From IMG/VR virus record IMGVR_UViG_2690316068_000002: a stretch of 64,000 bases of DNA; one strand, written 5' to 3'. The translations under genes were made by a program, and so were the position numbers. Below, one piece after another: positions 9,453-63,069 of this stretch (position 1 is the first letter of the stretch; every line of letters starts with the position of its first letter). The notes below the pieces were generated by a model. That model worked only from the letters and a program-made list of their open reading frames with translations, made no database searches and was not told the origin of the DNA. Origin of the DNA: a virus (taxonomy: Duplodnaviria > Heunggongvirae > Uroviricota > Caudoviricetes).

Positions 9453-11138
9453 TCATTTAACGCGTTTGAAAACGTATACGCTGACTGTGATCCCTGTGTC
9501 TTCAAACTCGTTGGTAAACGACTTCCCTCTGGCATAAACGTAATTATCCATCGTCATCCAGTCCAGTATTGGCGCAGTGCCCGGCAATACTGCTACAAGA
9601 CGCCCGCCGACTTTCAGATGCCCCAGCGCAGCCAGCGTGTGCTCTCTATGACGACCAAGCGAGTACGGCGGGTTCATAACGATTTTGTCGAACTGATAAC
9701 CTACGTTGTCCTCAGACCACTTTATGAAGTCGCAGCAAATCGTGTTCGTATACCCTTTTCCGCGCAGGATATCAGCGAAGAGAGGTGCGATTTCTATGCA
9801 GGTAACATCTTCCAGATCGGCGTTGATATAGGCCAGAAGATCCCCACGTCCGGCTTGAGGCTCCAGCAGCTTCTCACCAGACTTCAATTCAGTGGCTCTG
9901 GCAACGTACTCAGCAATCAAGCGTGGGGTAGGGTAGAACTGGTGTGATTTTGTATCCGGTATTAATCCGGTAGCCACAATCGTATTTAGCGTATGGCCGA
10001 TCTCATACGGGAACTGCCAGTGCTTTTTCTCCTGCACGCCGCCAATGAAGCTCAGTGTGCGCTCAAGCTCTTCCACCTGCGACTTCTGGAGAGCTGAATC
10101 AGAGAAGTACCATACGCCTTTGTCTTTGCTTAATCGCCCGTCACGAAGCGCAGTGCGAACCGGCACGGAGATCGTCTTCTGGATTAACCCGAACTGCTTT
10201 GGTGCCCGTGTTTTTGGCGCGGTGCGACATGGCGCGGGGATTGCAGCAGGCATACTGTAAGCCAGCACCTCATTCAACTTCCAGGCCACGTCAGGATGTA
10301 TTTCAAAGTGAACGTTGCCGTTCTTGAACATCTTCACGCGCATTAGATTTCCATCGACGTTCATCCAGTCACCGGTCTGGCAGTCGTTTGCCCGATACGC
10401 AGCTGATAGCACCTCAGCAGTGCGGTTGATGGTAATAAATTCTTTGTGCGCGAAGAAATGAAGCAAGACACGCAGATCGTCGATATAGTCCTCTTTGCGA
10501 TAGTTCACACTAACGCTGTCCCGCCAGAAATCAGAAATGCAGTCAGCGATTATCAGACGTTCGCTGAAACCGTTTGTCTTATTTGTCTTGTGCGCAGGAC
10601 TCAGCGCCTTAAACAAGCCATACACGCGCTCAGAGAGATATTTGTGCCTGTCATTCAGCAAATTAAGCATCGTGGGTATGACCGTTTCTGCTTTGAACTC
10701 CGGTACACCAACGAACTCTTTAACCTTCATCTGGTAGCCGGTTCTGTCAGTTTTGATGACTTCCTGTTTGCCCTCTATAAACTGCTCGCGCCACTCATCT
10801 CGACGGGAAGCTGGCATGATCAGCAAAACGTTAGTCATGTCCGTGACCTTCCTCCAGTACTCGGCCCAAATATTCTGTTTCACCCATTCCAGATCGACTT
10901 TATCCAACCAACCTCGATTTAAACGCGAGCGATCTTCATCTGGTCGATGGTTTAGTCTCAGCAGGCGATTAATCATGTTGTGGCGTTCGTCGCCATAAAC
11001 GAAGTCGTGTACCTGATACATGAAGGCGATCTCTTTCTCGCACTCGGCCACAATTTCGTGGATGACGTTCATTTCCTGCCGATAGTCGATAGCAGTGTTT
11101 GAGTTGGCATCGTCGATGATGGAAAGGGCTGTATTCAT
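9453..11138 (-). CDS. DNA methyltransferase (N6A/N4C class) with large N-terminal domain of unknown function
   Basis: 561 aa; C-terminal FYPTP...LEPQAGRG...VMNPPY motifs. Confidence 0.65.
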   Translation of the reverse strand: MNTALSIIDDANSNTAIDYRQEMNVIHEIVAECEKEIAFMYQVHDFVYGDERHNMINRLLRLNHRPDEDRSRLNRGWLDKVDLEWVKQNIWAEYWRKVTDMTNVLLIMPASRRDEWREQFIEGKQEVIKTDRTGYQMKVKEFVGVPEFKAETVIPTMLNLLNDRHKYLSERVYGLFKALSPAHKTNKTNGFSERLIIADCISDFWRDSVSVNYRKEDYIDDLRVLLHFFAHKEFITINRTAEVLSAAYRANDCQTGDWMNVDGNLMRVKMFKNGNVHFEIHPDVAWKLNEVLAYSMPAAIPAPCRTAPKTRAPKQFGLIQKTISVPVRTALRDGRLSKDKGVWYFSDSALQKSQVEELERTLSFIGGVQEKKHWQFPYEIGHTLNTIVATGLIPDTKSHQFYPTPRLIAEYVARATELKSGEKLLEPQAGRGDLLAYINADLEDVTCIEIAPLFADILRGKGYTNTICCDFIKWSEDNVGYQFDKIVMNPPYSLGRHREHTLAALGHLKVGGRLVAVLPGTAPILDWMTMDNYVYARGKSFTNEFEDTGITVSVYVFKRVK

Positions 11139-11179
11139 AATTGCACCATTAAGAAGTGATTTGTTTAATGGTGCAATTA
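11139..11179. promoter_or_regulatory. Perfect 14-bp inverted repeat abutting the methyltransferase start codon
   Basis: aattgcaccattaa-N13-ttaatggtgcaatt. Confidence 0.4.
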
Positions 11180-11241
11180 TTTCAAAAATGAAAAGGTACT
11201 AAATAGAAATAAACAGGCAATCCTTCAAATAAAGGCATTGG

Positions 11242-42425: not shown

Positions 42426-42428
42426 TGA

Positions 42429-42448
42429 TGCCCGCCAATTGGCGGGCA
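42429..42448 (+). terminator. Terminator-like hairpin
   Basis: gcccgcc-aatt-ggcgggc. Confidence 0.4.
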
Positions 42449-42754
42449 TCTGTTCTCTGTAAAGGTGTCTGGCATCGTCTGGTTCGTTAACGTTTACTAA
42501 ACCAATGGTGACAAAAATTAGTTATCTTTGAAAAATAAAGGTTGCATGAAAAGAAGGGGTATGCGTTAATAGCATCGTTGGTTTGCAAGACAGACCTTAT
42601 GTAAGCAGTTTTAGTAAAGCAGTCTCAGTTCAGTGTTATCTTCTGATTTCCCTTCTTCGTGAGTCTCCTCCTTAAGTGCCTAAGTAAGTCCCAATCTATA
42701 CAGATCAAATTCTCGCCGCACTATGTGGCTCACAAAATTAAGAAGGTAATATCT

Positions 42755-46200: not shown

Positions 46201-46792
46201 CTACTTTCATCGCTCGGACGTTAATCTGGTCGTAGAATGGGGTAGGGTGCGGATAAACCACGCTATAGAAGTTGTCTTTCCCGCCCGCTGTAATCAGTGA
46301 GCTTATGATTTTTGCAAAATCGTTGCGTTGGAACACGCTACCGATGTCGGAAGTGAGCAGGATGATGTTGCCTTTGGCATATGTAGAAACCAACTGTTCG
46401 AGCGAGAGACGCGGTACAAAGTAGAACTGTTCTCGTGTGTTGGCCACCGTCATTAGTTCGCAGATGTCGCGATATCCTTGCTCATTTTTAATTAGAGCGG
46501 TAAACGAGTAGTTACGTCCCCGCTCTAATGATTCCATACATCTCATAGATTCTTTAGCAAGTTTAGCCCGGTGCTCGTATGTGGGATCATCAACGATATT
46601 TAGTTTCACACCACAAATAACCGCCATGTCGTCACCAGCGGCACGTTGTAGTGGAATAACGCTCGCAATATTCATGCTATCTGCTGAAATTACAGCGGTG
46701 TAGCCAGCTTCTCTGGCAATCTTCACCGCGTTTTCTGCTTTTAGAGCCGACTCCCCAAGTGAGAAGTCAGTTCGAACCATCAGTGCCTTCAT
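43274..46792 (-). CDS. DNA polymerase III alpha-type (DnaE family) replicative polymerase
   Basis: 1172 aa; N-terminal PHP domain; GPGRGSSAGSLVAWCIGITNVDP motif; conserved ribosome-binding context. Confidence 0.9.
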   Translation of the reverse strand: MKALMVRTDFSLGESALKAENAVKIAREAGYTAVISADSMNIASVIPLQRAAGDDMAVICGVKLNIVDDPTYEHRAKLAKESMRCMESLERGRNYSFTALIKNEQGYRDICELMTVANTREQFYFVPRLSLEQLVSTYAKGNIILLTSDIGSVFQRNDFAKIISSLITAGGKDNFYSVVYPHPTPFYDQINVRAMKVASALKIEPVAFYPAYYESIDDADIKDIAHMVTNNIKIDQPHRLRIPHQRDNAINGRRHLLEALKAFSVRMDVPVTAAMASTTQDSIIDACTWRWHELPPALPKMADDEPATLMKLAVAGLRKRLTTKEFGYTPPASENRVYVERLKYEMNTLTRLGFCGYFLMVRDLMNHSRETGIPVGPGRGSSAGSLVAWCIGITNVDPIRHGLLFERFINPERLDLPDADLDFSQARRHEVIEYLNERYGEDYVAGIPNFTYLGAASALRDTARIYGVESADMAVSKELKNVEDDSLPLEELREQLASLDKYATKYPDAFNAACKLQSLMRGFGRHAAGMIVAGVPLTERTPVERRGDARCIAFDKRYCEAMGLIKLDVLGLATLDLLDSAKRYIKENTGEDINLDAISLEDRKVLDGFAAGYTQGVFQLESGPMRKLLKDLGGGIEPMSFKTVVATTALFRPGPIQSGMLDDYVSVAKGFMTPESLHPVLDELTAETNGVILYQEQTMNATRLLAGFTMAEADGVRSAIGKKNMEKMKSMGEKFIVQAQAGWIDVELEDGTTQRIHRAEHFKCEDGTLKTVEEALEHGAKLPINAVRVTASHPGLSEMKAKEIWTAFEKNGAYQFNKSHSVAYSLISYQSMWLKTHYPAEFFAAALTILGEDKHQGLVKDALTYGIRVLPPDVNVSSNRIEIRTLEDGSQVLYAPFSAVKGCSENGCQAIMRAREKVGGKFESLAQFEEAVEKRACNSRVRESLQKVGAFASIEPGSLPATDPERLRDQAELMGNLVIDAVKASRPFEMNPKRSAEINVLMTRMAAEMGLGDELIRPNIGIKPKIMIILDNANGNDARTGYFMENGYDDFKAKLLTAGDLRMGDLYVTGVCKKVKDKEKDYTKDEIGQFTDFMREEINLVRPTYILTCGSRSTALFNNKSKPSDLIGRKEYFPELDATVFYGFNPNILYFRPEEGERLEAILADIAETINK

Positions 46793-50974: not shown

Positions 50975-51361
50975 ATGTCTGATAACAAGATTGAATTTAT
51001 AGAAAGTCGCTACGCTGCTTTTATCGCAGGGTTGATTGAATCCTCACCTATGAGCCAGGCCCAGATAGCCAAAACAATTGGGTATAAAAACGCCAACAAC
51101 CTTTCTTTAATTAAAAGCGGCAAAATTCCTTTGCCTATCGATAAGGTTCGTCCGCTGGCGCTGGCACTGGGCATTGAGCCAAGTCGTCTTATGATGATGG
51201 TGCTGGAAGAACGCCAACCCGAACTCGCAGCATTTTTATACAAAGAAGGCACTGCTCCTCTTAACGAGGACGAAAAACAGGTTCTTGCTGCATATAACGA
51301 GCGATTCGGTAAAGAGAAAGGCGCATCACAAAAGGTTGTTGAGGCCATAAAGTCTCTATGA
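50975..51361 (+). CDS. HTH (XRE/Cro-CI family) transcriptional regulator
   Basis: 128 aa; SQAQIAKTIGYKNANNLSLIKSGK HTH; convergent with integrase. Confidence 0.6.
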   Translation: MSDNKIEFIESRYAAFIAGLIESSPMSQAQIAKTIGYKNANNLSLIKSGKIPLPIDKVRPLALALGIEPSRLMMMVLEERQPELAAFLYKEGTAPLNEDEKQVLAAYNERFGKEKGASQKVVEAIKSL

Positions 51362-52459
51362 AAAATTTACACGAATAAGCTCTGTTGATAGACGATCTCC
51401 CTTAAATTTGTGGTCAATTTCGTCTAAATCCGGTTGCTCTACGATTGATGCGATGTACGTCGAGAAACTTTCTAAGGCGTCTCGCATCTCGTCCATATAA
51501 TCGTGCCGGTCGTAGACCCGATCTATCCCCTCAAGACTGTGGTTCATGATTTTACGTGATACCTCCTGGCTTATGCCTAATGCTGGGAAGTAACTACGCG
51601 CAGTACGGCGCAAATCTCGGGGTGTAAATGGCTCAAGCTCCATCAGTTCTGGTCGTTCCAGAATACGACGTAATGCCTGGGCTATTGCCACTTTAGACAT
51701 AGGAAGGTCTTTCCCGATTTTTTTATTCGAAGGCACGAGCCACTGGCTGTCTTTACCATATTCGAACAACTCTTCAATACAAGTGCGCATTAATGAGCTT
51801 AAAGGCAGAGAATGCTCACGGGCAGATTTGTTCCTCTTGCCTTGATTCCAAACCCCACGCTTAAGATTGAACTCACTTTTTTTAGCCCGCAGTACTTCGT
51901 CAGGTCGTCTTGCGGATACAAGACATAGCCTGGCCGCCCATTTTGTACCAGCACACACATTGAAGTAGTCCCATATATTCCAGAACACCCATACCTCTGC
52001 GTCGGTCAGCTTCCGCTCGCGAGGTGTGGGCTTTGCGCCACCGGCAACTTTGTTAAGTGACATATCGTTTAACGGTGACACGTCTATCATCCCCTGGAAG
52101 GCGCACCAGCTAAGGAACTGCTTCATCAGAGAGAAAACGCGGCGGCCCATAACAATTTTGCCATCCAGTATTAGTGGGTTGACCAGTTGGTTCACCATGA
52201 ACCTATTAATGTCACTTACTTTTACATCGGCAATGTGCGGCAAAACATGTATCAAAATACAATGAACAGCGATCTCTGGCCGACGTCTGGTTATCAGCAG
52301 AGATAAGCGAGTGAATAACATGAATGCGTCCGAGAATCTCATGTCATTGCTGACCTGGGAGATCATAACGGCCTGCATTTGAGATGCTCTTTCGAGATAC
52401 TCTATCGCCTCTTTTGAGGTGTTCTCCGCAGCGCGTGCTCTGTCAAAGCTATTTTTCAT
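51356..52459 (-). CDS. Tyrosine recombinase / phage integrase family
   Basis: 367 aa; C-terminal RDLRRTARSY...NHS...VYDRHDY catalytic motifs. Confidence 0.8.
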   Translation of the reverse strand: MKNSFDRARAAENTSKEAIEYLERASQMQAVMISQVSNDMRFSDAFMLFTRLSLLITRRRPEIAVHCILIHVLPHIADVKVSDINRFMVNQLVNPLILDGKIVMGRRVFSLMKQFLSWCAFQGMIDVSPLNDMSLNKVAGGAKPTPRERKLTDAEVWVFWNIWDYFNVCAGTKWAARLCLVSARRPDEVLRAKKSEFNLKRGVWNQGKRNKSAREHSLPLSSLMRTCIEELFEYGKDSQWLVPSNKKIGKDLPMSKVAIAQALRRILERPELMELEPFTPRDLRRTARSYFPALGISQEVSRKIMNHSLEGIDRVYDRHDYMDEMRDALESFSTYIASIVEQPDLDEIDHKFKGDRLSTELIRVNFS

Positions 52460-52557
52460 ATGACAATCACCGAGTTACGCCGATGCACTGTATAAGTAAA
52501 CAGTATATTAGGCATAGATTCTTATAGGATCAAGAGTAAAAGTAACTCATTTTCAGC

Positions 52558-52590
52558 AATGATTCCATACATAGTAGGTATGGAATCATT
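52558..52590. promoter_or_regulatory. Palindrome upstream of integrase: inverted GTATGGAATCATT
   Basis: aatgattccatac-N7-gtatggaatcatt; single copies of the 13-mer recur near 55402 and 56414. Confidence 0.5.
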
Positions 52591-52671
52591 TAGACGTCGT
52601 TTTTTAAATTTTAAGGTAAACAGGAGTGAGTTTGGTGGGGAATAAAAAACGGCTCCTGTGAGCCGTTAAAA

Positions 52672-52920
52672 TCAGAGGGTGCTGACGTATGCAGCCAGTT
52701 CTGTGTATCCGCCAATCGGCTGGCCATCGATCAGCACCTGGGGGATAGTCTCTACCGGTTTATCAACAATTTCACTTAGTTTTTCCTTGTCGATACCGGC
52801 AGTGGTGATGTCGATGTACTCATAATCACCGTAGCCATGTCCCTTTAGTTGCTTCGCCAGCTCAACCGCACGTTTGCAGTATGAGCAGTTATCTCGTCCG
52901 TAGATAACGACTTTCATCAC
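52672..52920 (-). CDS. Glutaredoxin (Grx1-like)
   Basis: 82 aa; VVIYGRDNCSYCKRA CxxC site; aligns with E. coli GrxA. Confidence 0.85.
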   Translation of the reverse strand: MMKVVIYGRDNCSYCKRAVELAKQLKGHGYGDYEYIDITTAGIDKEKLSEIVDKPVETIPQVLIDGQPIGGYTELAAYVSTL

Positions 52921-53102
52921 TTCACCTCGTGCAACTGCTGTTCATTAACGATGATTGTGTCAATTTCGTAGCCGTGGATGCGTGGCTTTGGCTTCACTGC
53001 CTGACGAGCTGCGCGACGCGCCTGTTTACGTTTGTTTCCCATATAGAGTCCTTTCAAGTGAGTAAGTGTCGTGACTATAGCTAAAATGAATAGGTGAGTC
53101 AT
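52917..53102 (-). CDS. Hypothetical small basic protein
   Basis: 61-aa ORF, 4-nt overlap with grx. Confidence 0.3.
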   Translation of the reverse strand: MTHLFILAIVTTLTHLKGLYMGNKRKQARRAARQAVKPKPRIHGYEIDTIIVNEQQLHEVK

Positions 53103-53191
53103 TACCTATTTAATGTGTTTGGTTACTAAGCAGAAATGGCTTTGTGAGGTTGACACATTAGAAACGGCAAGACAGCTTTAAACTAGCTGAA

Positions 53192-54481
53192 ATGGTATGG
53201 TCGATTAGGTATCATTCAGTTTCAAAATTAACCAAAGACACTGATAAAATGCCTGTTTTGTTAATCCTCATACTTGGGACAGTGATGATTATTTTCTGGG
53301 ATACCGTCAAGGAAAACGTAGAGGTCATAGGTACACTTGCCACTTCACTTGCATTTTTCGCCACAGCATGGGCCGCTTACGAGGCAAGGCATAGTGCAAA
53401 GGCAGCAATGAGGGCCACTAGGCTGACGGCAGCTTCACTCCTTGAAATGAAAAAAGCCTCTTTTAAGGAATGGTACGGCATATTACTTGAACAGCATAAT
53501 AGATTACTTGAGGATGTTAACAAGACCTTGCAGGATGATAGGGAACTTAATGCAAAACTGGGAACGAATCTCATCAAGGCTATTTATTACCATGTAACCA
53601 AAAACTCCGTTTACATTAAATATATTAACCACATAGTTTTAATTCTTGATTATTTAGATAAAGACTTCTATTCGCCGTCATCAGCCGATTATGAAAAGAG
53701 AGCTTACATAGAACAGCTGCGCAACAGCATTAGTCCTAATGTAAGCCTGCTGATAGCTACATTCGGCCTTAATATTGACACTAATAAAACCTATGACGCA
53801 AAGAGGCTTTACAGCCTGCTAAGCAAGTATAACTTCTTCGAAGGCCAACTTTTTTTTGAAGAAGCAATATCGAAAGTTCATTATTTGGACTCTTATGCTG
53901 CTGTGATATTTGATAACGAATACCGAAAAGATGTAGAGTTTTATGTTGAAGAAATGGTTCGAGGTCGTGAGACCCCTAAAATCGATTCAAGATATCGTCA
54001 TTTAAGGGCTACGTTCGCAATTCTGTGGTCTTACAACAACCCCTGCCGACAACATTTGCTTCAAAGATTTAATGACCTACCTATGCATATGCGAAACAGC
54101 ATTGAGCTGAGGATGGAAAATGCAGCCGATAAAGTAGCTGAGTTCAACTCTTTGTTACTTGGTTTTATAGGCTGGGAGCTTAGAATCGCAGGTAATAAAG
54201 TGAGGGTGATCAAGGATGAAAAACATTTAAAGAGGCTAATAAAACTCAACGATAAGTATCCAATTCCCCCCCGAGAGAAAGGTATTCTGTTAACCAATGG
54301 TTTCACCAATAGATTCGCTGATGAGATTAAAAATAGTCTGTCTATGTATAAGTTAGAAAATGCCTATTTAGCACTCAACTCTAATCAACACAAAGAAAAG
54401 GTGATTGATGAAATTGTTGTTGAAGTTGAGAAAATTGTCGATAAATTTAAAGCAGAACTTGATTCTTTGGATTTCAACTAA
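53192..54481 (+). CDS. Hypothetical membrane-anchored protein (AT-rich, plus strand)
   Basis: 429 aa; N-terminal hydrophobic helix; lower GC than neighbours; own terminator. Confidence 0.5.
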   Translation: MVWSIRYHSVSKLTKDTDKMPVLLILILGTVMIIFWDTVKENVEVIGTLATSLAFFATAWAAYEARHSAKAAMRATRLTAASLLEMKKASFKEWYGILLEQHNRLLEDVNKTLQDDRELNAKLGTNLIKAIYYHVTKNSVYIKYINHIVLILDYLDKDFYSPSSADYEKRAYIEQLRNSISPNVSLLIATFGLNIDTNKTYDAKRLYSLLSKYNFFEGQLFFEEAISKVHYLDSYAAVIFDNEYRKDVEFYVEEMVRGRETPKIDSRYRHLRATFAILWSYNNPCRQHLLQRFNDLPMHMRNSIELRMENAADKVAEFNSLLLGFIGWELRIAGNKVRVIKDEKHLKRLIKLNDKYPIPPREKGILLTNGFTNRFADEIKNSLSMYKLENAYLALNSNQHKEKVIDEIVVEVEKIVDKFKAELDSLDFN

Positions 54482-54485
54482 GCAA

Positions 54486-54510
54486 AAAGGGGCCGAAGCC
54501 CCTTTAATTA
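54486..54510 (+). terminator. Rho-independent terminator
   Basis: aaaggggc-cgaa-gcccctt followed by T-rich tract. Confidence 0.6.
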
Positions 54511-54580
54511 TTTGCGCTGAAAAAAGTGTTGCTAGGATGTTAGCAAGCTATGGTTAAGAACGTCTGCCGCAATTGTCTAT

Positions 54581-54658
54581 CACAGCGTTGAGCGGTCTGG
54601 TTTATGTTAGCGGAGTCTTAATCTGGGTGATTAAAAGGCCAAACCGCTCAACGCTGTG
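54581..54658. repeat. Long inverted repeat (20-bp arms, 1 mismatch) abutting the 3' end of tRNA-Ser
   Basis: cacagcgttgagcggtctgg ... ccaaaccgctcaacgctgtg. Confidence 0.6.
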
Positions 54659-54660
54659 TC

Positions 54661-54747
54661 TGGCGGAGAGTAATGGAATCGAACCATCATCGCTTGCGCA
54701 ATGGGACGGTTTTCAAGACCGCTTGAGCACCATGCTCCCTACTCTCC
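54661..54747 (-). tRNA. tRNA-Ser (anticodon UGA), type II
   Basis: Hand-folded: GGAGAGT/ACTCTCC acceptor, G discriminator, encoded CCA, anticodon loop CUUGAAA, long variable arm, TTCGATT T-loop. Confidence 0.75.
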
Positions 54748-54960
54748 AGTTGTTGTGGTGCCGGGGGCTTCCCGGTGTCCTTTGGCTGGTTATCCACCGT
54801 GGACGGAGCCAATAGTCATCACAAAGGATCAATATAACCATTTCCCCGCGTGCGCTTAGCCGCATTCACCACAACGAAAAGAGCACTGTATGACGTTTGC
54901 ACGGACTTACGCTTAAAACAGGGCAGTCTCGGCGGTTCTCAATGCTCTTTCCTGTTGTGT

Positions 54961-55036
54961 TGGTGCCGGTTAACGGATTCGAACCGCCGACCATTCGCTT
55001 ACAAGGCGACTGCTCTACCAACTGAGCTAAACCGGC
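54961..55036 (-). tRNA. tRNA-Thr (anticodon UGU)
   Basis: GCCGGTT/AACCGGC acceptor, encoded CCA, anticodon loop CUUGUAA, TTCGAAT T-loop. Confidence 0.75.
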
Positions 55037-55040
55037 AATT

Positions 55041-55127
55041 TGGTGGGGAGTGATGGAGTCGAACCACCCGAGTCGCAATGACAGTAGATTTACAGTCTAC
55101 ACCGCTACCTCTACGGACTAACTCCCC
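55041..55127 (-). tRNA. tRNA-Tyr (anticodon GUA), type II
   Basis: GGGGAGT/ACTCCCC acceptor, encoded CCA, anticodon stem-loop GACUGUAAAUC, long variable arm. Confidence 0.75.
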
Positions 55128-55132
55128 TAAAT

Positions 55133-55207
55133 TGGCGATGGTGGGTGGATTCGAACCACCGACCAGTTGGTTAACAGCCAACTGCTCTACCGCTGAGCTA
55201 CACCATC
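55133..55207 (-). tRNA. tRNA-Asn (anticodon GUU)
   Basis: GATGGTG/CACCATC acceptor, encoded CCA, anticodon loop CUGUUAA, TTCGAAT T-loop. Confidence 0.75.
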
Positions 55208-55473
55208 AATTCGGCACTGCCAGTATTTATTACTCAACAGTGCCAATCGCGACGGTTTAGTTTCTGCCAGGAAACGCACCGCTACTTGCACTTTTCGTTA
55301 GTGCCAGACGCTTTCGACTTCGCTCAATAGTAGAAGGCAAAATCTTTAAGTAGATGATGTTTCTGAGGACAGCACCTACTTTGTAATTTATACAATGTGA
55401 TGTATGGAATCATTTGTTGTGAAAACAGGCACCAATGGCAACAGTGGTTAAACCTACACAACAATCCTGTCTT

Positions 55474-55595
55474 CACAACGTTGAGGCCACTACTCCGATT
55501 GAATGTTTGCCCAACATGTTACATATCAACGCTCGCCGGTATCTCTGTGAATAGAACCTTAGAATTGATAAAAATGTAATGGCCTCAACGTTGTG
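55474..55595. repeat. Long inverted repeat (15-bp perfect arms, about 92-bp loop) upstream of the tRNA cluster
   Basis: cacaacgttgaggcc ... ggcctcaacgttgtg; arm related to the 54581 repeat. Confidence 0.55.
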
Positions 55596-55985
55596 TGCTG
55601 GCTAACCATACCAGCCGGGCTACGTCGCCGCTTTTTAACCCAGTATAAACGACATAATTGAACAAAATGACGTAACAGGATGGGCGGTCAGTGGCTAAGA
55701 ATCCGGGAGTCATATGGAGTTGAAAATATACCAACCGCCCATTCTGTTACTTCATCGGAGGGAACATGAATGTTCCCTCCTGCGTTCTGCAATCACACTC
55801 GCTCAGTGTGTCCCATTTCGGTAACGAGGCTGGAAACTGACCTCGCTGGTGTTTGGCTTATTAGGCTACTGCCAGATAGACTTCTTCGTTTGCACTTGTA
55901 TTTAAGTTCAAACAGTCGCGTCTCAACGAAAACAAAGTCATCTTATACATAAAAGATAAGTAAGTAAATACTTATTATTGTATTT

Positions 55986-56276
55986 TTATTCGGTTGTGAC
56001 TTTTTTGATCAAGGCCACTCTACGACTAGGTGTTCTTGTGATGGTGGCAGTGAATCGTTTCGCTTGGATAGTAATGGTTTCGTTCTCCTTAAGTTGCCCG
56101 TAGCGAGTTTCCACCAGGGTGCCAAGACGCCACAGACCATCATCGATACGTTTATGACTAGCAAATTTAATCAGCAACAGTTTTACGACTAACTGACCTA
56201 CGTAAAAGGCGAATGCGACTCCGGCCGCTAAGCAATAGGTGGCCAACCACCAGTCCCAAGAAGTTAAATTGCTCAT
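55986..56276 (-). CDS. Hypothetical membrane protein
   Basis: 96 aa; N-terminal TM segment. Confidence 0.4.
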   Translation of the reverse strand: MSNLTSWDWWLATYCLAAGVAFAFYVGQLVVKLLLIKFASHKRIDDGLWRLGTLVETRYGQLKENETITIQAKRFTATITRTPSRRVALIKKVTTE

Positions 56277-56421
56277 TTTCTAACCTTTGTTTCATGAACT
56301 ACCCGATACACACGCTTTCCGATGCACAGTGTTTTGGTTTTAAGTTCCTGCTTAATTAAATCACGACAGATGCCGAAGCCGATAAGGAAGCCACTCATAA
56401 AAGCTAATGAGATGTATGGAA

Positions 56422-56637
56422 TCATTTTAACACTCCTGATTCTACTAATTGCTGTAGCAATACTTTCCCTTTATCAGTTAACTGGTAGTTGGCCGAACAC
56501 TTCGTTTCAGAAACGTTTGCAACCAACCCTAACCGCTCTAACTTAGCCCGCGTTTTAGGCTTCCAGTACTCAGGGAACTCTGACCACTTACTGATTTCAT
56601 GAAGCGTTTCCTTCTCCCGCTTACTTAATACGATCAT
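56422..56637 (-). CDS. Hypothetical protein
   Basis: 71-aa ORF overlapping the stop of the upstream small ORF. Confidence 0.4.
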   Translation of the reverse strand: MIVLSKREKETLHEISKWSEFPEYWKPKTRAKLERLGLVANVSETKCSANYQLTDKGKVLLQQLVESGVLK

Positions 56638-56800
56638 CCTTAATCTCCTTCACTGTGTGGGTTATTTCTACAATGCGATAAATACGACCGCGTCGTTCTA
56701 TAACACCGCTTTTAATGTAGTCATTGATGCAACTGGACATCACCACAATACCGATTAAAAAACCAACCGCTAAAAATGCAATCATCCAGCCGAGCATCAT
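56621..56800 (-). CDS. Small membrane peptide (59 aa)
   Basis: Hand-translated; ATGA overlap with ligase stop; single TM. Below ORF-track cutoff. Confidence 0.3.
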   Translation of the reverse strand: MMLGWMIAFLAVGFLIGIVVMSSCINDYIKSGVIERRGRIYRIVEITHTVKEIKDDRIK

Positions 56801-58119
56801 TCTTTATCTCCGATTCGATCTTCTGTATCGCGTAAGCAACGCGGCCATTTCAGTCGTGGGTGGCGTAAGCTGCCGTCCGGTGTTTTCTCGTGACAATGAA
56901 CCTCGACAATACGACCACGGTACTTCTCTTTGTTGTTCCAGATCTCGTCCAGATATTTATGCTTAATGCCGCTCGCACGAACGATGACGCCGTTTTCAAG
57001 ACGAATAACAATTTTTCCAAGTGTGTTGGCAAAACCAGAGTCCGGGTCGCCCGGCTCAAAGTCGATAATTTCACCATCTTCTGAATCTTCGTCTTTTAAC
57101 TTCCACCAGCTGCGGGTACGTTTAAACTCGTAAACAGAGTTCGGATCTTTGCCCATCTCCCCTTCTTCGTTATCGTCCAGGCGTTTCATGAAGCGTTCGA
57201 TGAAGTCTTCGTGGCTATGGATGATGTAGAACGGATGTAGGTGAATGTCTTGCGCGTAGTCTTCACTGCGATCGTTTTTGAACAACGCCACGAGAATAGC
57301 CAGGCGCTCTTTCAGCTTCATACCTGTCTTTGCATACTCTTTGGATTTAGCCTGTGCCCGCCATTCCGGTAGGAAGAAGTCGAAAACATGATAAATAGCG
57401 CCAATTGCCTGCACGTTCTTTTTGCGCAATGCAGATACGGACTGGTTAAATGAACCGGCTGTTCCTTCACCATCGAAGAAGATGTGTTTGTGGCCTGAAA
57501 GTTTGCCTAATTCGAGCATGGCTGGCTTTAGGTGATCGAGAGACGTGATTGGATTACCAGTACGAGAAAGGAAGTTCACCTCTTCCTCGTCAACAATAAC
57601 CTCACAAATTACTCGCAAACCATCGAGCTTAAGGCTGCCAATCATCGGCCATTTGGCTTTAGGATTTGGCTTGAAGGGGTATTTGTCGCCTTTTTCTTTA
57701 TACGGTGACGCCAGCTGCACCTCAAATTTCGGAATGGGATTTTCAAAAACCTTGTTGCATAGGCTAATCCCAACGCCAGCTTTCGGATCTTTTAAGAGGA
57801 AACGACGGAACACGTCCTGCCCATCGGCGCACATTGACGCCACGATAGACTCAACAGCAGCTATTGCTGCGTTCCCCGTCAGCTCGCGAGAGGCCAGCTT
57901 ATTCAGTATATCAATGGCTTTTTCGTCACTTGGGACGGACTCACTAAGCGGCTCTGCCACTTTGTATTTCTTTACCCCAAAACGGATGAAAGGGTTGAGC
58001 ATCAATGAAACCATGCTTTGCTCGAAGTCATCCATGTTGGCCAATGCCTCTTTTTTTGCATTGGTTCCCATAGCTTTCATTTCGTCCAGCTTATGCTTAA
58101 GTGCGATCAACTTTTTCAT
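56797..58119 (-). CDS. ATP-dependent DNA ligase
   Basis: 440 aa; adenylation motif I KLDGLR. Confidence 0.8.
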   Translation of the reverse strand: MKKLIALKHKLDEMKAMGTNAKKEALANMDDFEQSMVSLMLNPFIRFGVKKYKVAEPLSESVPSDEKAIDILNKLASRELTGNAAIAAVESIVASMCADGQDVFRRFLLKDPKAGVGISLCNKVFENPIPKFEVQLASPYKEKGDKYPFKPNPKAKWPMIGSLKLDGLRVICEVIVDEEEVNFLSRTGNPITSLDHLKPAMLELGKLSGHKHIFFDGEGTAGSFNQSVSALRKKNVQAIGAIYHVFDFFLPEWRAQAKSKEYAKTGMKLKERLAILVALFKNDRSEDYAQDIHLHPFYIIHSHEDFIERFMKRLDDNEEGEMGKDPNSVYEFKRTRSWWKLKDEDSEDGEIIDFEPGDPDSGFANTLGKIVIRLENGVIVRASGIKHKYLDEIWNNKEKYRGRIVEVHCHEKTPDGSLRHPRLKWPRCLRDTEDRIGDKE

Positions 58120-63012: not shown

Positions 63013-63069
63013 GACCTGCTTCTGTATATATATAAATACTAATTTACTTATTATATACAGAAGCAGGTC
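63013..63069. repeat. Palindromic element, copy 2 (18-bp perfect arms)
   Basis: gacctgcttctgtatata ... tatatacagaagcaggtc; related to copy at about 15941-15999. Confidence 0.6.

What the first reader, a model, noticed from the sequence alone, without database searches (positions are those of the whole stretch)
50975..54510. Integrase, HTH regulator and a membrane-anchored orphan gene next to the tRNA cluster
A tyrosine recombinase and a convergent XRE-type regulator sit about 2 kb from the tRNA cluster, preceded by a perfect palindrome of GTATGGAATCATT. Between them and the tRNAs is an AT-rich plus-strand gene for a 429-aa protein with an N-terminal membrane anchor and its own terminator. This has the look of an integration or accessory hotspot; the integrase could also be a dimer-resolution recombinase.
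Basis: partly seen in the sequence, partly recalled or inferred. Interest (0 to 1): 0.5.

Follow-up and report, generated by a model that had tools for sequence, protein, structure and literature searches.

The report
Phage-plasmid recombinase site plus AbiC-like gene
This stretch of an SSU5-type phage-plasmid holds a simple recombinase with its own conserved 33-bp target site (most likely used to keep plasmid copies as monomers), a backbone regulator, and a stand-alone membrane protein distantly related to the AbiC anti-phage protein; it is an ordinary kind of accessory region, but the target site has apparently not been described.

Summary
The window is an SSU5-like phage-plasmid (about 99% identical to pRHB19-C05_2). 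The recombinase (51356-52459, minus strand) belongs to a roughly 365-aa lambda/P4-type family that lacks the arm-binding domain. All 62 family loci fetched carry a 13-7-13 inverted repeat 45-252 bp upstream of the gene. The arms differ between clades and change on both sides together. The 7-bp spacer (TTAATAG-like) is conserved but occurs in both orientations. In 5,426 complete E. coli genomes the module is found 255 times, always on plasmids. Relatives without phage genes or the HTH gene sit on megaplasmids. I read it as a Cre/loxP-like multimer-resolution module, not a tRNA-site integrase. Cargo differs between close relatives starting at the outer edge of the arm. The "orphan" is really 410 aa (53249-54481) with two N-terminal transmembrane helices. 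It is a divergent member of the putAbiC superfamily (hhalign probability 100%). Homologues sit as single genes in P2-like and lambdoid prophages, so it is a candidate single-gene defence moron. Unexplained: three further exact copies of the arm within 10 kb, all pointing toward the palindrome and conserved across genera. Ordinary kind, new members.

The parts
50975..51361 (+). HTH (XRE-like) regulator, 128 aa. It is a backbone gene of SSU5-type phage-plasmids and is annotated as 'putative repressor' in phage Cyrano.
   Evidence: phrog_8 E 1.3e-11; Pfam HTH_19 E 7.8e-4, below cut-off. The orthologue CYRAN_45 is expressed 10x above background in lysogens (PMC9928086). By tblastn it is found only where CobT-type phage-plasmid backbone genes are also present, and not next to int on megaplasmids.
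51356..52459 (-). Tyrosine recombinase, 367 aa, made of a lambda/P4-type core-binding domain plus a catalytic domain, with no arm-binding domain.
   Evidence: PF00589 E 2.9e-10; PF22022 weak hit. Catalytic R185, K211, R284, H307 and Y316 are conserved; His-II is replaced by Arg281 in the whole family. The AF2 model has pLDDT 83. The best PDB match is lambda Int(75-356) bound to a COC' core site, TM 0.72. Remote relatives carry PF13356; this family does not.
52558..52590 (.). Putative core recombination site: 13-nt arm AATGATTCCATAC, 7-nt spacer ATAGTAG, 13-nt inverted arm.
   Evidence: The same 13-7-13 architecture lies upstream of int in 62 of 62 family loci. Arms co-vary with the recombinase clade, and the spacer is conserved in either orientation. 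Homology between close relatives breaks at the outer edge of the arm.
52648..52667 (-). Intrinsic terminator of the grx operon.
   Evidence: 8-bp stem followed by TTTTATT.
52672..52920 (-). Glutaredoxin (GrxA-like), a backbone gene.
   Evidence: PF00462 E 4.7e-11; RefSeq annotation.
52917..53102 (-). Remnant of the 5' end of phoH. The rest of phoH and the gp49 gene, present in Klebsiella and Enterobacter relatives, are deleted here.
   Evidence: phrog_27585 matches residues 21-61. The region aligns to the phoH start region of L005. The same place is annotated as an incomplete PhoH pseudogene in pTHO-010-2.
53249..54481 (+). AbiC/AbiP-like membrane protein, 410 aa, with two N-terminal transmembrane helices and a helical cytoplasmic domain. 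The longest ORF starts at 53192.
   Evidence: phrog_18168 E 1e-173. Alignment A1. The A1 profile reaches remote relatives. Of the 20 relatives scanned, 16 match Pfam PF16872 putAbiC at or above its cut-off, and all 13 of the A2 set that were scanned do. hhalign A1 versus A2: probability 100%, E 8.9e-42. AF2 pLDDT 79. No fold match in PDB or BFVD.
54486..54505 (.). Bidirectional terminator hairpin shared by the AbiC-like gene and the convergent tRNA operon.
   Evidence: sequence. The minus strand reads AAAGGGGCTTCGGCCCCTTTTTG.
54661..55207 (-). tRNA cluster: Ser(TGA), Thr(TGT), Tyr(GTA), Asn(GTT).
   Evidence: ARAGORN; Rfam.
46527..46542 (+). One-armed copy of the site arm plus ATC (AATGATTCCATACATC), inside dnaE and antisense to it.
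   Evidence: It is exact in the Klebsiella dnaE although neighbouring codons differ.
55399..55414 (-). One-armed copy of the arm plus ATC, about 195 nt upstream of the tRNA operon.
   Evidence: It is a conserved island in a region that otherwise cannot be aligned between the window and Klebsiella.
56411..56426 (-). One-armed copy of the arm plus ATC, coinciding with the start codon of the small membrane ORF 56273-56425 (MIPYI...).
51841..51853 (+). Decayed arm copy inside int (10 of 13 positions). It is an intact 14-mer in the Klebsiella, Enterobacter, Kluyvera and Yersinia int genes.

Best explanation
This is the maintenance and accessory region of an SSU5-type phage-plasmid.

1. Recombinase and site. 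The 'integrase' is a simple tyrosine recombinase descended from P4/lambda-type integrases that has lost the arm-binding domain. Two monomers are inferred to bind the two 13-nt arms of the adjacent palindrome and to exchange strands across the 7-bp spacer, as lambda Int does at a COC' core or Cre does at loxP. On a circular, multicopy prophage-plasmid the main job is to turn head-to-tail multimers back into monomers. As a by-product, the same site is the point at which flanking cargo is swapped between related replicons. This would explain why cargo differs from the arm's outer edge onward.

2. HTH protein. It is a phage-plasmid backbone regulator, probably a lysogeny regulator. It is not part of the recombination module.

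3. The 410-aa gene. It is an independently acquired, AT-rich, single-gene moron. It encodes an inner-membrane protein with two transmembrane helices and a cytoplasmic helical domain, of the AbiC/AbiP superfamily. It most likely protects the lysogen against other phages by abortive infection or exclusion.

What is shown: the gene and site architecture, conservation and covariation of the site, plasmid-only distribution, and homology to putAbiC. What is inferred: binding, strand exchange, resolution, and anti-phage activity.
For: Recombinase and site:
- Catalytic residues are conserved.
- The fold is closest to the lambda Int core-binding plus catalytic domains on COC' DNA.
- PF13356 is absent from the family but present in remote P4-type relatives.
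- 62 of 62 family loci have a 13-7-13 inverted repeat (at least 11 of 13 positions complementary) 45-252 bp upstream of int.
- The arm is AATGATTCCATAC in the SSU5 clade and TGTGACTCCAGAC in the other clade, changed symmetrically.
- The spacer is TTAATAG in 29 loci, CTATTAA in 13 and TTATTAG in 9. A 7-bp spacer is the overlap length of lambda-type integrases (established knowledge).
- The int-plus-site module also occurs on Pantoea, Rahnella and Erwinia plasmids without HTH, CobT or phage genes, among unrelated genes.
- In E. coli the module is on plasmids in 255 of 255 places and on chromosomes in 0.
- There are at least five different right flanks beginning at the arm edge in plasmids whose int side is 97-99.9% identical.
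- Published work lists tyrosine recombinases in the persistent genome of SSU5-type phage-plasmids and says phage-plasmids may use recombinases to resolve dimers (PMC7969092).

AbiC-like gene:
- A1 profile to remote relatives, E 1e-35 to 1e-7 over the full length.
- 16 of the 20 relatives scanned against Pfam match PF16872 at or above its cut-off. That count includes P0070 exactly at the 22-bit cut-off and all 13 scanned members of the A2 set. The four that do not match are the ones nearest the window clade. 2 of 15 match PADLOC AbiC.
- hhalign probability 100%.
- Two transmembrane helices, as reported for AbiC (PMC13064643).
- Homologues are single, opposite-strand genes in a P2-like prophage (between V and S) and a lambdoid prophage, and in chromosomal islets.
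- It is present in only 17 of 5,426 E. coli genomes, against 252 with the int module.
- The neighbouring cargo slot in Cyrano holds a gene expressed 723x above background in lysogens.
Against: - No experiment or direct computational trace of recombination at the site was found. For example, no cointegrate with two sites and no resolved product was seen.
- His-II of the catalytic signature is Arg in the whole family, so activity is assumed, not shown.
- The palindrome could also, or only, act as an operator.
- Spacer flipping can arise from hairpin-associated small inversions without any recombinase.
- Three further exact one-armed copies of the arm (plus a decayed one in int), conserved across genera, are not predicted by a plain resolution model.
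- The window protein itself does not reach the Pfam putAbiC or PADLOC AbiC models. The link is transitive.
- AbiC's own mechanism is unknown, and no fold match gives a biochemical activity.
Confidence: 0.6

Rival explanations
1. The recombinase is a true phage integrase. It would insert the element into a chromosomal site such as a tRNA gene, and the palindrome would be the attP core.
For: The family descends from P4/CP4-57-type integrases, which usually target tRNA genes. tRNA genes lie 2.2 kb away. A few homologous contigs are very long.
Against: 0 of 255 E. coli places are chromosomal. There is no arm-binding domain and there are no arm-type repeats near the core. No tRNA-like sequence is present in the site. 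The same module sits on megaplasmids with no phage genes. Published surveys find SSU5-type elements to be extrachromosomal (PMC9600943).
Confidence: 0.04
2. The palindrome and the one-armed copies are operators. The recombinase-fold protein (or the HTH protein) would bind them to regulate int, the tRNA operon, the small-ORF operon and dnaE. This would resemble the recombinase-fold repressors YopR and SroF of SPbeta-type phages, or the asymmetric, dispersed C1 operators of P1.
For: There are exact one-armed copies at a gene start, upstream of the tRNA operon, and inside dnaE and int. They are conserved in Klebsiella and Enterobacter where the flanks have diverged. All copies lie within 10 kb and nowhere else in the replicon. 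YopR and SroF appear among the Foldseek matches. The HTH orthologue is expressed in lysogens.
Against: The catalytic residues are fully conserved, which a pure repressor would not need. The palindrome occurs without HTH and without one-armed copies in the larger clade. The palindrome lies about 35 bp upstream of the best -35 candidate for int rather than over it (sequence). The orientation of the copies does not follow the direction of transcription.
Confidence: 0.15
3. The recombinase and its site form a cargo-capture system, loosely like an integron's IntI and attI. Circular DNA would be inserted at the palindrome. The one-armed copies would be hybrid-site scars of recombination with secondary sites, comparable to the one-arm-conserved sfx sites of the Rci shufflon.
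For: Cargo starts at the arm edge in many relatives. In PhiR41_1 a fimbrial block is bounded by the palindrome on one side and by a non-orthologous one-armed copy on the other. One-armed copies point inward, as hybrid sites flanking an insert would.
Against: Cargo blocks are not flanked by two full or two hybrid sites. The PhiR41_1 replacement also carries an IS remnant. The dnaE and int copies lie inside conserved coding sequence, which is an unlikely place for junctions. Megaplasmid relatives show a single site among unrelated genes.
Confidence: 0.12
4. The 410-aa membrane protein is not a defence protein. It would serve the phage-plasmid itself, or act as a lysogenic-conversion membrane factor, and share only ancestry with AbiC.
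For: There is no direct hit to the Pfam or PADLOC AbiC models. There is no fold or activity assignment. It holds a fixed position next to phoH in Klebsiella and Enterobacter phage-plasmids.
Against: It is dispensable: absent from Cyrano and most E. coli relatives, and replaced by another gene in pGD31-F25. It moves as a single gene between three unrelated temperate phage types at moron positions. Full-length homology to putAbiC proteins is clear.
Confidence: 0.3

Closest known systems
Cre/loxP of phage-plasmid P1 (and Cre-like pairs such as Dre/rox, VCre/VloxP)
   Same: A single tyrosine recombinase without accessory proteins, encoded on a phage-plasmid next to a site made of two 13-nt inverted arms around a short asymmetric spacer. 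The presumed role is multimer resolution.
   Different: There is no detectable sequence relationship. The fold match to Cre is far weaker than to lambda Int (E 0.028 versus 1.5e-7). The spacer is 7 nt rather than 8. The enzyme descends from P4-type integrases. Activity is untested.
Lambda Int core-type (COC') recombination and P4/CP4-57-type integrases
   Same: This is the best structural match and the nearest sequence relatives. The 7-bp overlap region and the RKxRH-Y catalytic set are shared.
   Different: There is no arm-binding N-terminal domain (PF13356) and there are no arm-type sites. The core arms are long and perfect (13 nt). His-II is Arg. The module is never chromosomal in E. coli.
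Plasmid and chromosome resolution by single Xer-type recombinases (XerH/difH, XerS/difSL, XerA) and by plasmid-borne tyrosine resolvases (ResD/rfsF of F)
   Same: One recombinase acts on one palindromic site in a circular replicon. XerH and XerA are among the fold matches.
   Different: It is a different sequence family. No FtsK-type control is known or implied here. The site sequence is unrelated.
Rci/sfx shufflon of IncI plasmids
   Same: A tyrosine recombinase whose sites have a 7-bp spacer and only one conserved arm. This is the closest precedent for the one-armed copies seen here (from established knowledge; not tested here).
   Different: Here the main site is a perfect palindrome. The one-armed copies lie kilobases apart, partly inside essential genes, and no inversion variants were seen.
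AbiC (Prf) and AbiP of Lactococcus (AbiC/P group; Pfam PF16872 putAbiC)
   Same: One or two N-terminal transmembrane helices plus a helical soluble domain. It is a single-gene system on mobile elements. Homology is shown by profile-profile comparison through intermediates.
   Different: It is about 410 aa rather than 344, with a longer C-terminal region. It is too divergent to hit the Pfam or PADLOC models directly. It is found in Enterobacterales temperate phages. Phenotype is untested.

Membership tests
Tyrosine recombinase (Pfam PF00589 superfamily) | Catalytic R-K-H-R-H/W-Y signature in a C-terminal catalytic domain | tested here: met
   R185, K211, R284, H307 and Y316 are conserved in alignment A3. 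His-II is Arg281 in the whole family. PF00589 scores 40.6 bits against a cut-off of 27.1.
Tyrosine recombinase (Pfam PF00589 superfamily) | Two-domain fold: core-binding plus catalytic | tested here: met
   AF2 model with pLDDT 83. Foldseek against lambda Int(75-356)/COC' gives E 1.9e-6, TM 0.72.
P4/lambda-type phage integrase (arm-dependent, chromosomal integration) | N-terminal arm-type DNA-binding domain (PF13356/DUF4102 or equivalent) | tested here: not met
   No PF13356 hit. It is absent from all close family members and present only in relatives at 26-34% identity.
P4/lambda-type phage integrase (arm-dependent, chromosomal integration) | Integrated copies in chromosomes flanked by attL and attR | tested here: not met
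   255 places in 5,426 complete E. coli genomes, all on plasmids.
Simple recombinase/site pair (Cre/loxP-like resolution module) | Inverted binding arms around a short asymmetric spacer, adjacent to the gene, conserved with the gene | tested here: met
   62 of 62 loci. Arms co-vary with the clade. The spacer is conserved.
Simple recombinase/site pair (Cre/loxP-like resolution module) | Recombinase binds and recombines two copies of the site; multimers accumulate without it | not testable with these tools
   Needs EMSA or cleavage assays, a two-site resolution assay, and a deletion phenotype.
Cre family proper | Sequence or close fold relationship to Cre; 8-bp spacer | tested here: not met
   Cre (2crx) ranks 40th, at E 0.028. 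The spacer is 7 nt.
AbiC / putAbiC (PF16872) | Match to the putAbiC domain model | tested here: inconclusive
   The window protein has no direct hit at E<=1. The A1 profile is homologous over columns 35-368 to relatives that match PF16872 at or above the cut-off: 16 of 20 scanned, with the nearest relatives failing or at the cut-off.
AbiC / putAbiC (PF16872) | N-terminal transmembrane helices followed by a soluble helical domain | tested here: met
   Two hydrophobic segments at residues 1-17 and 24-42 of the 410-aa form. Helical model. AbiC is reported to have two transmembrane helices (PMC13064643).
AbiC / putAbiC (PF16872) | Confers phage resistance by abortive infection | not testable with these tools
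   Needs efficiency-of-plating and burst assays on cells expressing the gene.
XRE-family HTH regulator | HTH_3/HTH_19-type domain | tested here: inconclusive
   HTH_19 scores 19.7 bits against a cut-off of 30.2. phrog_8 gives E 1.3e-11. The orthologue is annotated as XRE family in RefSeq.

The most novel reading that the evidence does not exclude
The exact one-armed copies of the recombinase-binding arm are functional polar sites for the recombinase. These are the 16-mer AATGATTCCATACATC in dnaE, upstream of the tRNA operon and at a small-ORF start, plus a 14-mer version inside int itself in relatives. Every copy points toward the palindrome. Under this reading the enzyme would have a second role beyond resolution. 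That role could be long-range regulation or looping of the early/replication region, or directed low-frequency recombination that remodels the accessory region. It would be a recombinase acting at one full site together with a set of oriented half-sites spread over 10 kb, for which I know no precedent.
Probability: 0.15. Interest if true: 0.7.

Novelty: new member of a known kind. Interest (0 to 1): 0.4.

Why it matters
Recombinase and site:
- If the pairing is real, this is a widespread and apparently undescribed simple recombinase/target system of Enterobacterales plasmids and phage-plasmids.
- It has two natural specificity classes (arms ATGATTCCATAC and GTGACTCCAGAC). That gives ready candidates for orthogonal genome-engineering tools and a natural experiment in recombinase-site co-evolution.
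- It also locates precisely where SSU5-type phage-plasmids vary. These elements carry toxins, fimbriae and resistance genes in clinical E. coli, Klebsiella and Enterobacter.

AbiC-like gene:
- It extends a poorly understood defence family from lactococcal plasmids to enterobacterial temperate phages.
- It offers a tractable E. coli model for the mechanism.

Tried and rejected
Searches on the 410-aa protein that gave nothing:
- Direct Pfam, PADLOC and PDB-sequence searches: no hit.
- tblastn against 50,697 phage records: no match.
- Foldseek against BFVD: nothing at E <= 0.001.
- The AFDB library was unavailable.

Other searches that gave nothing:
- phmmer of the recombinase against PDB sequences: no hit.
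- Promoter scan: no more sites than in shuffled sequence, so no promoter claims are made.
- Rfam over 46-58 kb: only tRNAs and sub-threshold hits; nothing at the motif copies.
- Full-text search for the arm sequences: only unrelated primers.
- Searches for a described SSU5/pHCM2/pMT1 resolution site: nothing specific.

Ideas considered and set aside:
- The one-armed copies as 'MIPYI' mini-ORFs or leader peptides. The downstream reading frames are not conserved: stops fall after 5-6 codons in some copies and the frames stay open in others.
- The one-armed copies as full sites with a degenerate second arm. At most 6 of 13 positions match.
- Spacer flipping as proof of recombinase action. Hairpin-associated small inversions can do the same.

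Full report
CONTEXT

The window is part of an SSU5-type phage-plasmid.
- The region 50.4-57.0 kb is 99.3% identical to E. fergusonii plasmid pRHB19-C05_2 (110.8 kb).
- It is 93-98% identical in its backbone parts to the Escherichia phage-plasmids Cyrano, CMS-2020a and PhiR41_1.
- The neighbours are the typical backbone genes: DnaE, CobS-like ATPase, CobT-like protein, DNA ligase and the tRNA block.

CHECK OF THE OBSERVATION

All named features are present:
- A 367-aa tyrosine recombinase at 51356-52459(-).
- A convergent 128-aa HTH protein at 50975-51361(+), overlapping the recombinase gene by 6 bp.
- A perfect 13-nt inverted repeat, AATGATTCCATAC-ATAGTAG-GTATGGAATCATT, at 52558-52590, 98 bp upstream of the int start.
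- Four tRNA genes at 54661-55207(-).
- An AT-rich plus-strand ORF at 53192-54481 (38% G+C against 46% for the window).

Four corrections apply:
- The ORF is over-extended. Homologues, including remote ones with no Met at the PGAP start, begin at 'MPVLLIL' (53249). The protein is therefore 410 aa with two hydrophobic helices.
- It is not an orphan.
- The terminator at 54486-54505 is bidirectional and belongs to the conserved tRNA module.
- The palindrome arm occurs five times exactly in the window.

THE RECOMBINASE AND ITS SITE

Enzyme:
- The protein belongs to a family of about 365-aa enzymes found in Enterobacterales. Its more remote relatives (26-34% identity) are P4/CP4-57-type integrases that carry the arm-binding domain PF13356. 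This family lacks that domain.
- The catalytic Arg, Lys, Arg, His and Tyr are conserved. The first His of the signature is Arg throughout the family.
- A confident AF2 model (pLDDT 83) matches the lambda Int core-binding plus catalytic domains bound to COC' DNA best. Tn1549 Int, XerA, XerH and IntI follow. Cre is a distant 40th.

Site:
- I fetched 62 genomic loci of the family at 45-86% identity.
- Every one has a 13-7-13 inverted repeat, at least 11 of 13 positions complementary, 45-252 bp upstream of int.
- In the SSU5 clade the arm is AATGATTCCATAC. In the larger clade it is TGTGACTCCAGAC. That clade covers Pantoea, Rahnella, Erwinia and Ewingella plasmids, and Xenorhabdus, Photorhabdus and Morganella phage-plasmids. 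The three differences occur in both arms, so the palindrome is kept by compensatory change.
- The 7-nt spacer is itself conserved: TTAATAG in 29 loci, its reverse complement CTATTAA in 13, and TTATTAG in 9. It flips relative to int even between close relatives. The window has ATAGTAG and PhiR41_1 has CTACTAT.
- 13-nt arms with 20 bp between arm centres and a 7-bp central region is the geometry of a tyrosine-recombinase core site. It is not the geometry of an HTH operator.

The HTH gene is not part of this module:
- It accompanies int only where phage-plasmid backbone genes are present.
- On megaplasmids, int and the palindrome sit alone among chemotaxis, GGDEF, H-NS and TonB-receptor genes.
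- The palindrome therefore goes with the recombinase, not with the HTH protein.

INTEGRATION VERSUS RESOLUTION

- In 5,426 complete E. coli genomes the int-palindrome segment occurs in 252 genomes, at 255 places. All are on plasmids and none on a chromosome.
- There is no arm-binding domain, there are no arm-type repeats, and the site has no tRNA-like sequence.
- The module also occurs on non-phage plasmids.
[quoted passage not shown] They describe no site (PMC7969092). A full-text search for the arm sequences found nothing relevant.
- I therefore favour a Cre/loxP-like multimer-resolution module. Binding, cleavage and resolution are inferred, not shown.

THE HOTSPOT

Two variable slots exist.

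Slot A lies between the palindrome and the grx terminator. Its content differs by element:

| Element | Slot A content |
|---|---|
| The window | empty |
| Cyrano | CYRAN_43 |
| pGD31-F25, Enterobacter | YafO toxin-antitoxin pair |
| Klebsiella | colicin-type immunity gene plus YafO |
| pTHO-010-2, PhiR41_1 | fimbrial operons |

- In plasmids whose int side is 97-99.9% identical, the sequence diverges within 1-2 nt of the arm's outer edge. At least five different right flanks are seen.
- 13 of 40 sampled E. coli hits end at query position 1235-1237, which is window 52590-52592.
- This is what exchange within the spacer between replicons sharing the site would produce. It is also compatible with a conserved element simply sitting beside a variable region.
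- In Cyrano lysogens the slot A gene is expressed 723-fold above the prophage background and the HTH orthologue 10-fold (PMC9928086).

Slot B lies between the phoH promoter region and tRNA-Ser.
- It holds the AbiC-like gene in the window and in Klebsiella and Enterobacter.
- It holds an unrelated 302-aa gene in pGD31-F25.
- In Cyrano the AbiC-like gene and phoH are absent. grx and a gp49-family gene (CYRAN_41) lie next to the tRNA module there.
- In the window, phoH is reduced to a 5' remnant (52917-53102) fused next to grx.

THE 410-AA PROTEIN

Family size and homology:
- The family is small: 66 clusters at 90% identity, and 89 representatives at 50% identity among 1.84 billion proteins. It is confined to Enterobacterales.
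- The window protein has no direct Pfam or PADLOC hit.
- A profile of the family reaches 430-495-aa relatives over the full length.
- I scanned 20 relatives against Pfam. Sixteen match PF16872 (putAbiC) at or above its cut-off. That includes one exactly at the 22-bit cut-off and every scanned member of the remote set. The four nearest the window clade do not match. Two of the 15 scanned match PADLOC AbiC.
- Profile-profile comparison of the two sets gives probability 100%, E 8.9e-42, over columns 35-368.
- The shared core is the segment around 'IKYINHIxxILxYxDKDFY...YIEQLRNSI', which corresponds to 'SPYMRVLYHLLKHI...YSSLVRSLIRND' in the remote set.

Structure:
- The AF2 model (pLDDT 79, pTM 0.70) is helical with a small beta element.

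Genomic context of homologues:
- One sits as a single opposite-strand gene between gpV and gpS of a P2-like prophage.
- One sits between the replication and nin/Q regions of a lambdoid prophage.
- Others sit in chromosomal islets with wide intergenic flanks.
- In E. coli the gene is in 17 genomes, against 252 with the int module.

This is the behaviour of a single-gene moron. Abortive infection or exclusion is the most likely role, but it is inferred only from family membership and context.

UNEXPLAINED: ONE-ARMED COPIES

- The 13-mer arm extended by ATC occurs exactly at 46527(+), 55402(-) and 56414(-).
  - 46527(+) is inside dnaE, antisense to it.
  - 55402(-) is upstream of the tRNA operon.
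  - 56414(-) is at the start codon of a small membrane ORF.
- It occurs nowhere else in the 110-kb replicon, and no 1-2-mismatch variants exist.
- A further copy lies inside int. It is intact in Klebsiella, Enterobacter, Kluyvera and Yersinia and decayed in the window.
- The copies are exact in Klebsiella and Enterobacter although the flanks are about 72% identical or cannot be aligned. In the two coding copies the motif is read in different frames.
- All copies, including a non-orthologous one in PhiR41_1 cargo, point toward the palindrome.
- None has a second arm.
- The other recombinase clade has none within 7 kb either side.
- Possible readings are secondary recombinase-binding sites with a regulatory role, scars of recombination with secondary sites (Rci/sfx-like), or polar guide sequences. 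None was tested. This is the only part of the locus that departs from textbook expectation.

VERDICT

The parts are members of known kinds: a simple tyrosine recombinase with its site, a backbone HTH regulator, and an AbiC-superfamily moron. The 13-7-13 site, with its two specificity classes, appears undescribed and is directly testable. The oriented one-armed copies deserve an experiment.

Noticed in passing
window 54725-54893 (-): Sub-threshold Rfam match to the sRNA STnc100 (41.3 bits, gathering score 47) in the spacer between tRNA-Ser and tRNA-Thr. This spacer differs from Cyrano, which lacks tRNA-Tyr.
   Followed up: no
window 52917-53102 (-): The 61-aa ORF upstream of grx is a 5' remnant of phoH. 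The phoH body and the gp49-family gene present in Klebsiella and Enterobacter relatives have been deleted.
   Followed up: partly
window 55986-56800 (-): A run of small ORFs with membrane-like N-termini (96, 50 and 59 aa) plus a 71-aa ORF between them, lying between the tRNA block and the ligase gene. The 50-aa ORF starts exactly with the recombinase-arm 16-mer.
   Followed up: partly
window 63013-63069, 11137-11180, 42427-42450: Other long perfect inverted repeats in the window: 18-nt arms with a 21-nt gap, 16-nt arms with a 12-nt gap, and a 15-nt overlapping palindrome. None has the look of a terminator.
   Followed up: no
L090 3665-4573 (+) (pGD31-F25, NZ_CP031294.1): In the slot that holds the AbiC-like gene, this close relative carries an unrelated 302-aa plus-strand gene with no Pfam or PADLOC match. 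It may be another candidate defence moron.
   Followed up: partly
L008 19931-21245 (-) (P2-like prophage in a 4.76-Mb JGI contig): Next to the portal gene of the P2-like prophage that carries the AbiC-like homologue lies an AAA_15/AAA_21/SMC_N-type ATPase gene and a 225-aa partner. This is the arrangement seen at the known P2 defence hotspot.
   Followed up: no
L010 (Yersinia pestis NCTC5923, 108-kb contig): The pMT1-type plasmid of Y. pestis carries the same recombinase (86% identity), palindrome (spacer CTATTAA) and dnaE one-armed copy. It lacks the tRNA-side copies within the fetched 15 kb.
   Followed up: partly
L002/L006 (PhiR41_1, PV340561.1 80.1-86.6 kb): The whole block from the palindrome to the ligase start (window 52591-58091: grx, the AbiC-like gene, tRNAs, small ORFs, ligase) is replaced. 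In its place are a fimbrial operon with a gadW-like regulator and an IS remnant.
   Followed up: partly
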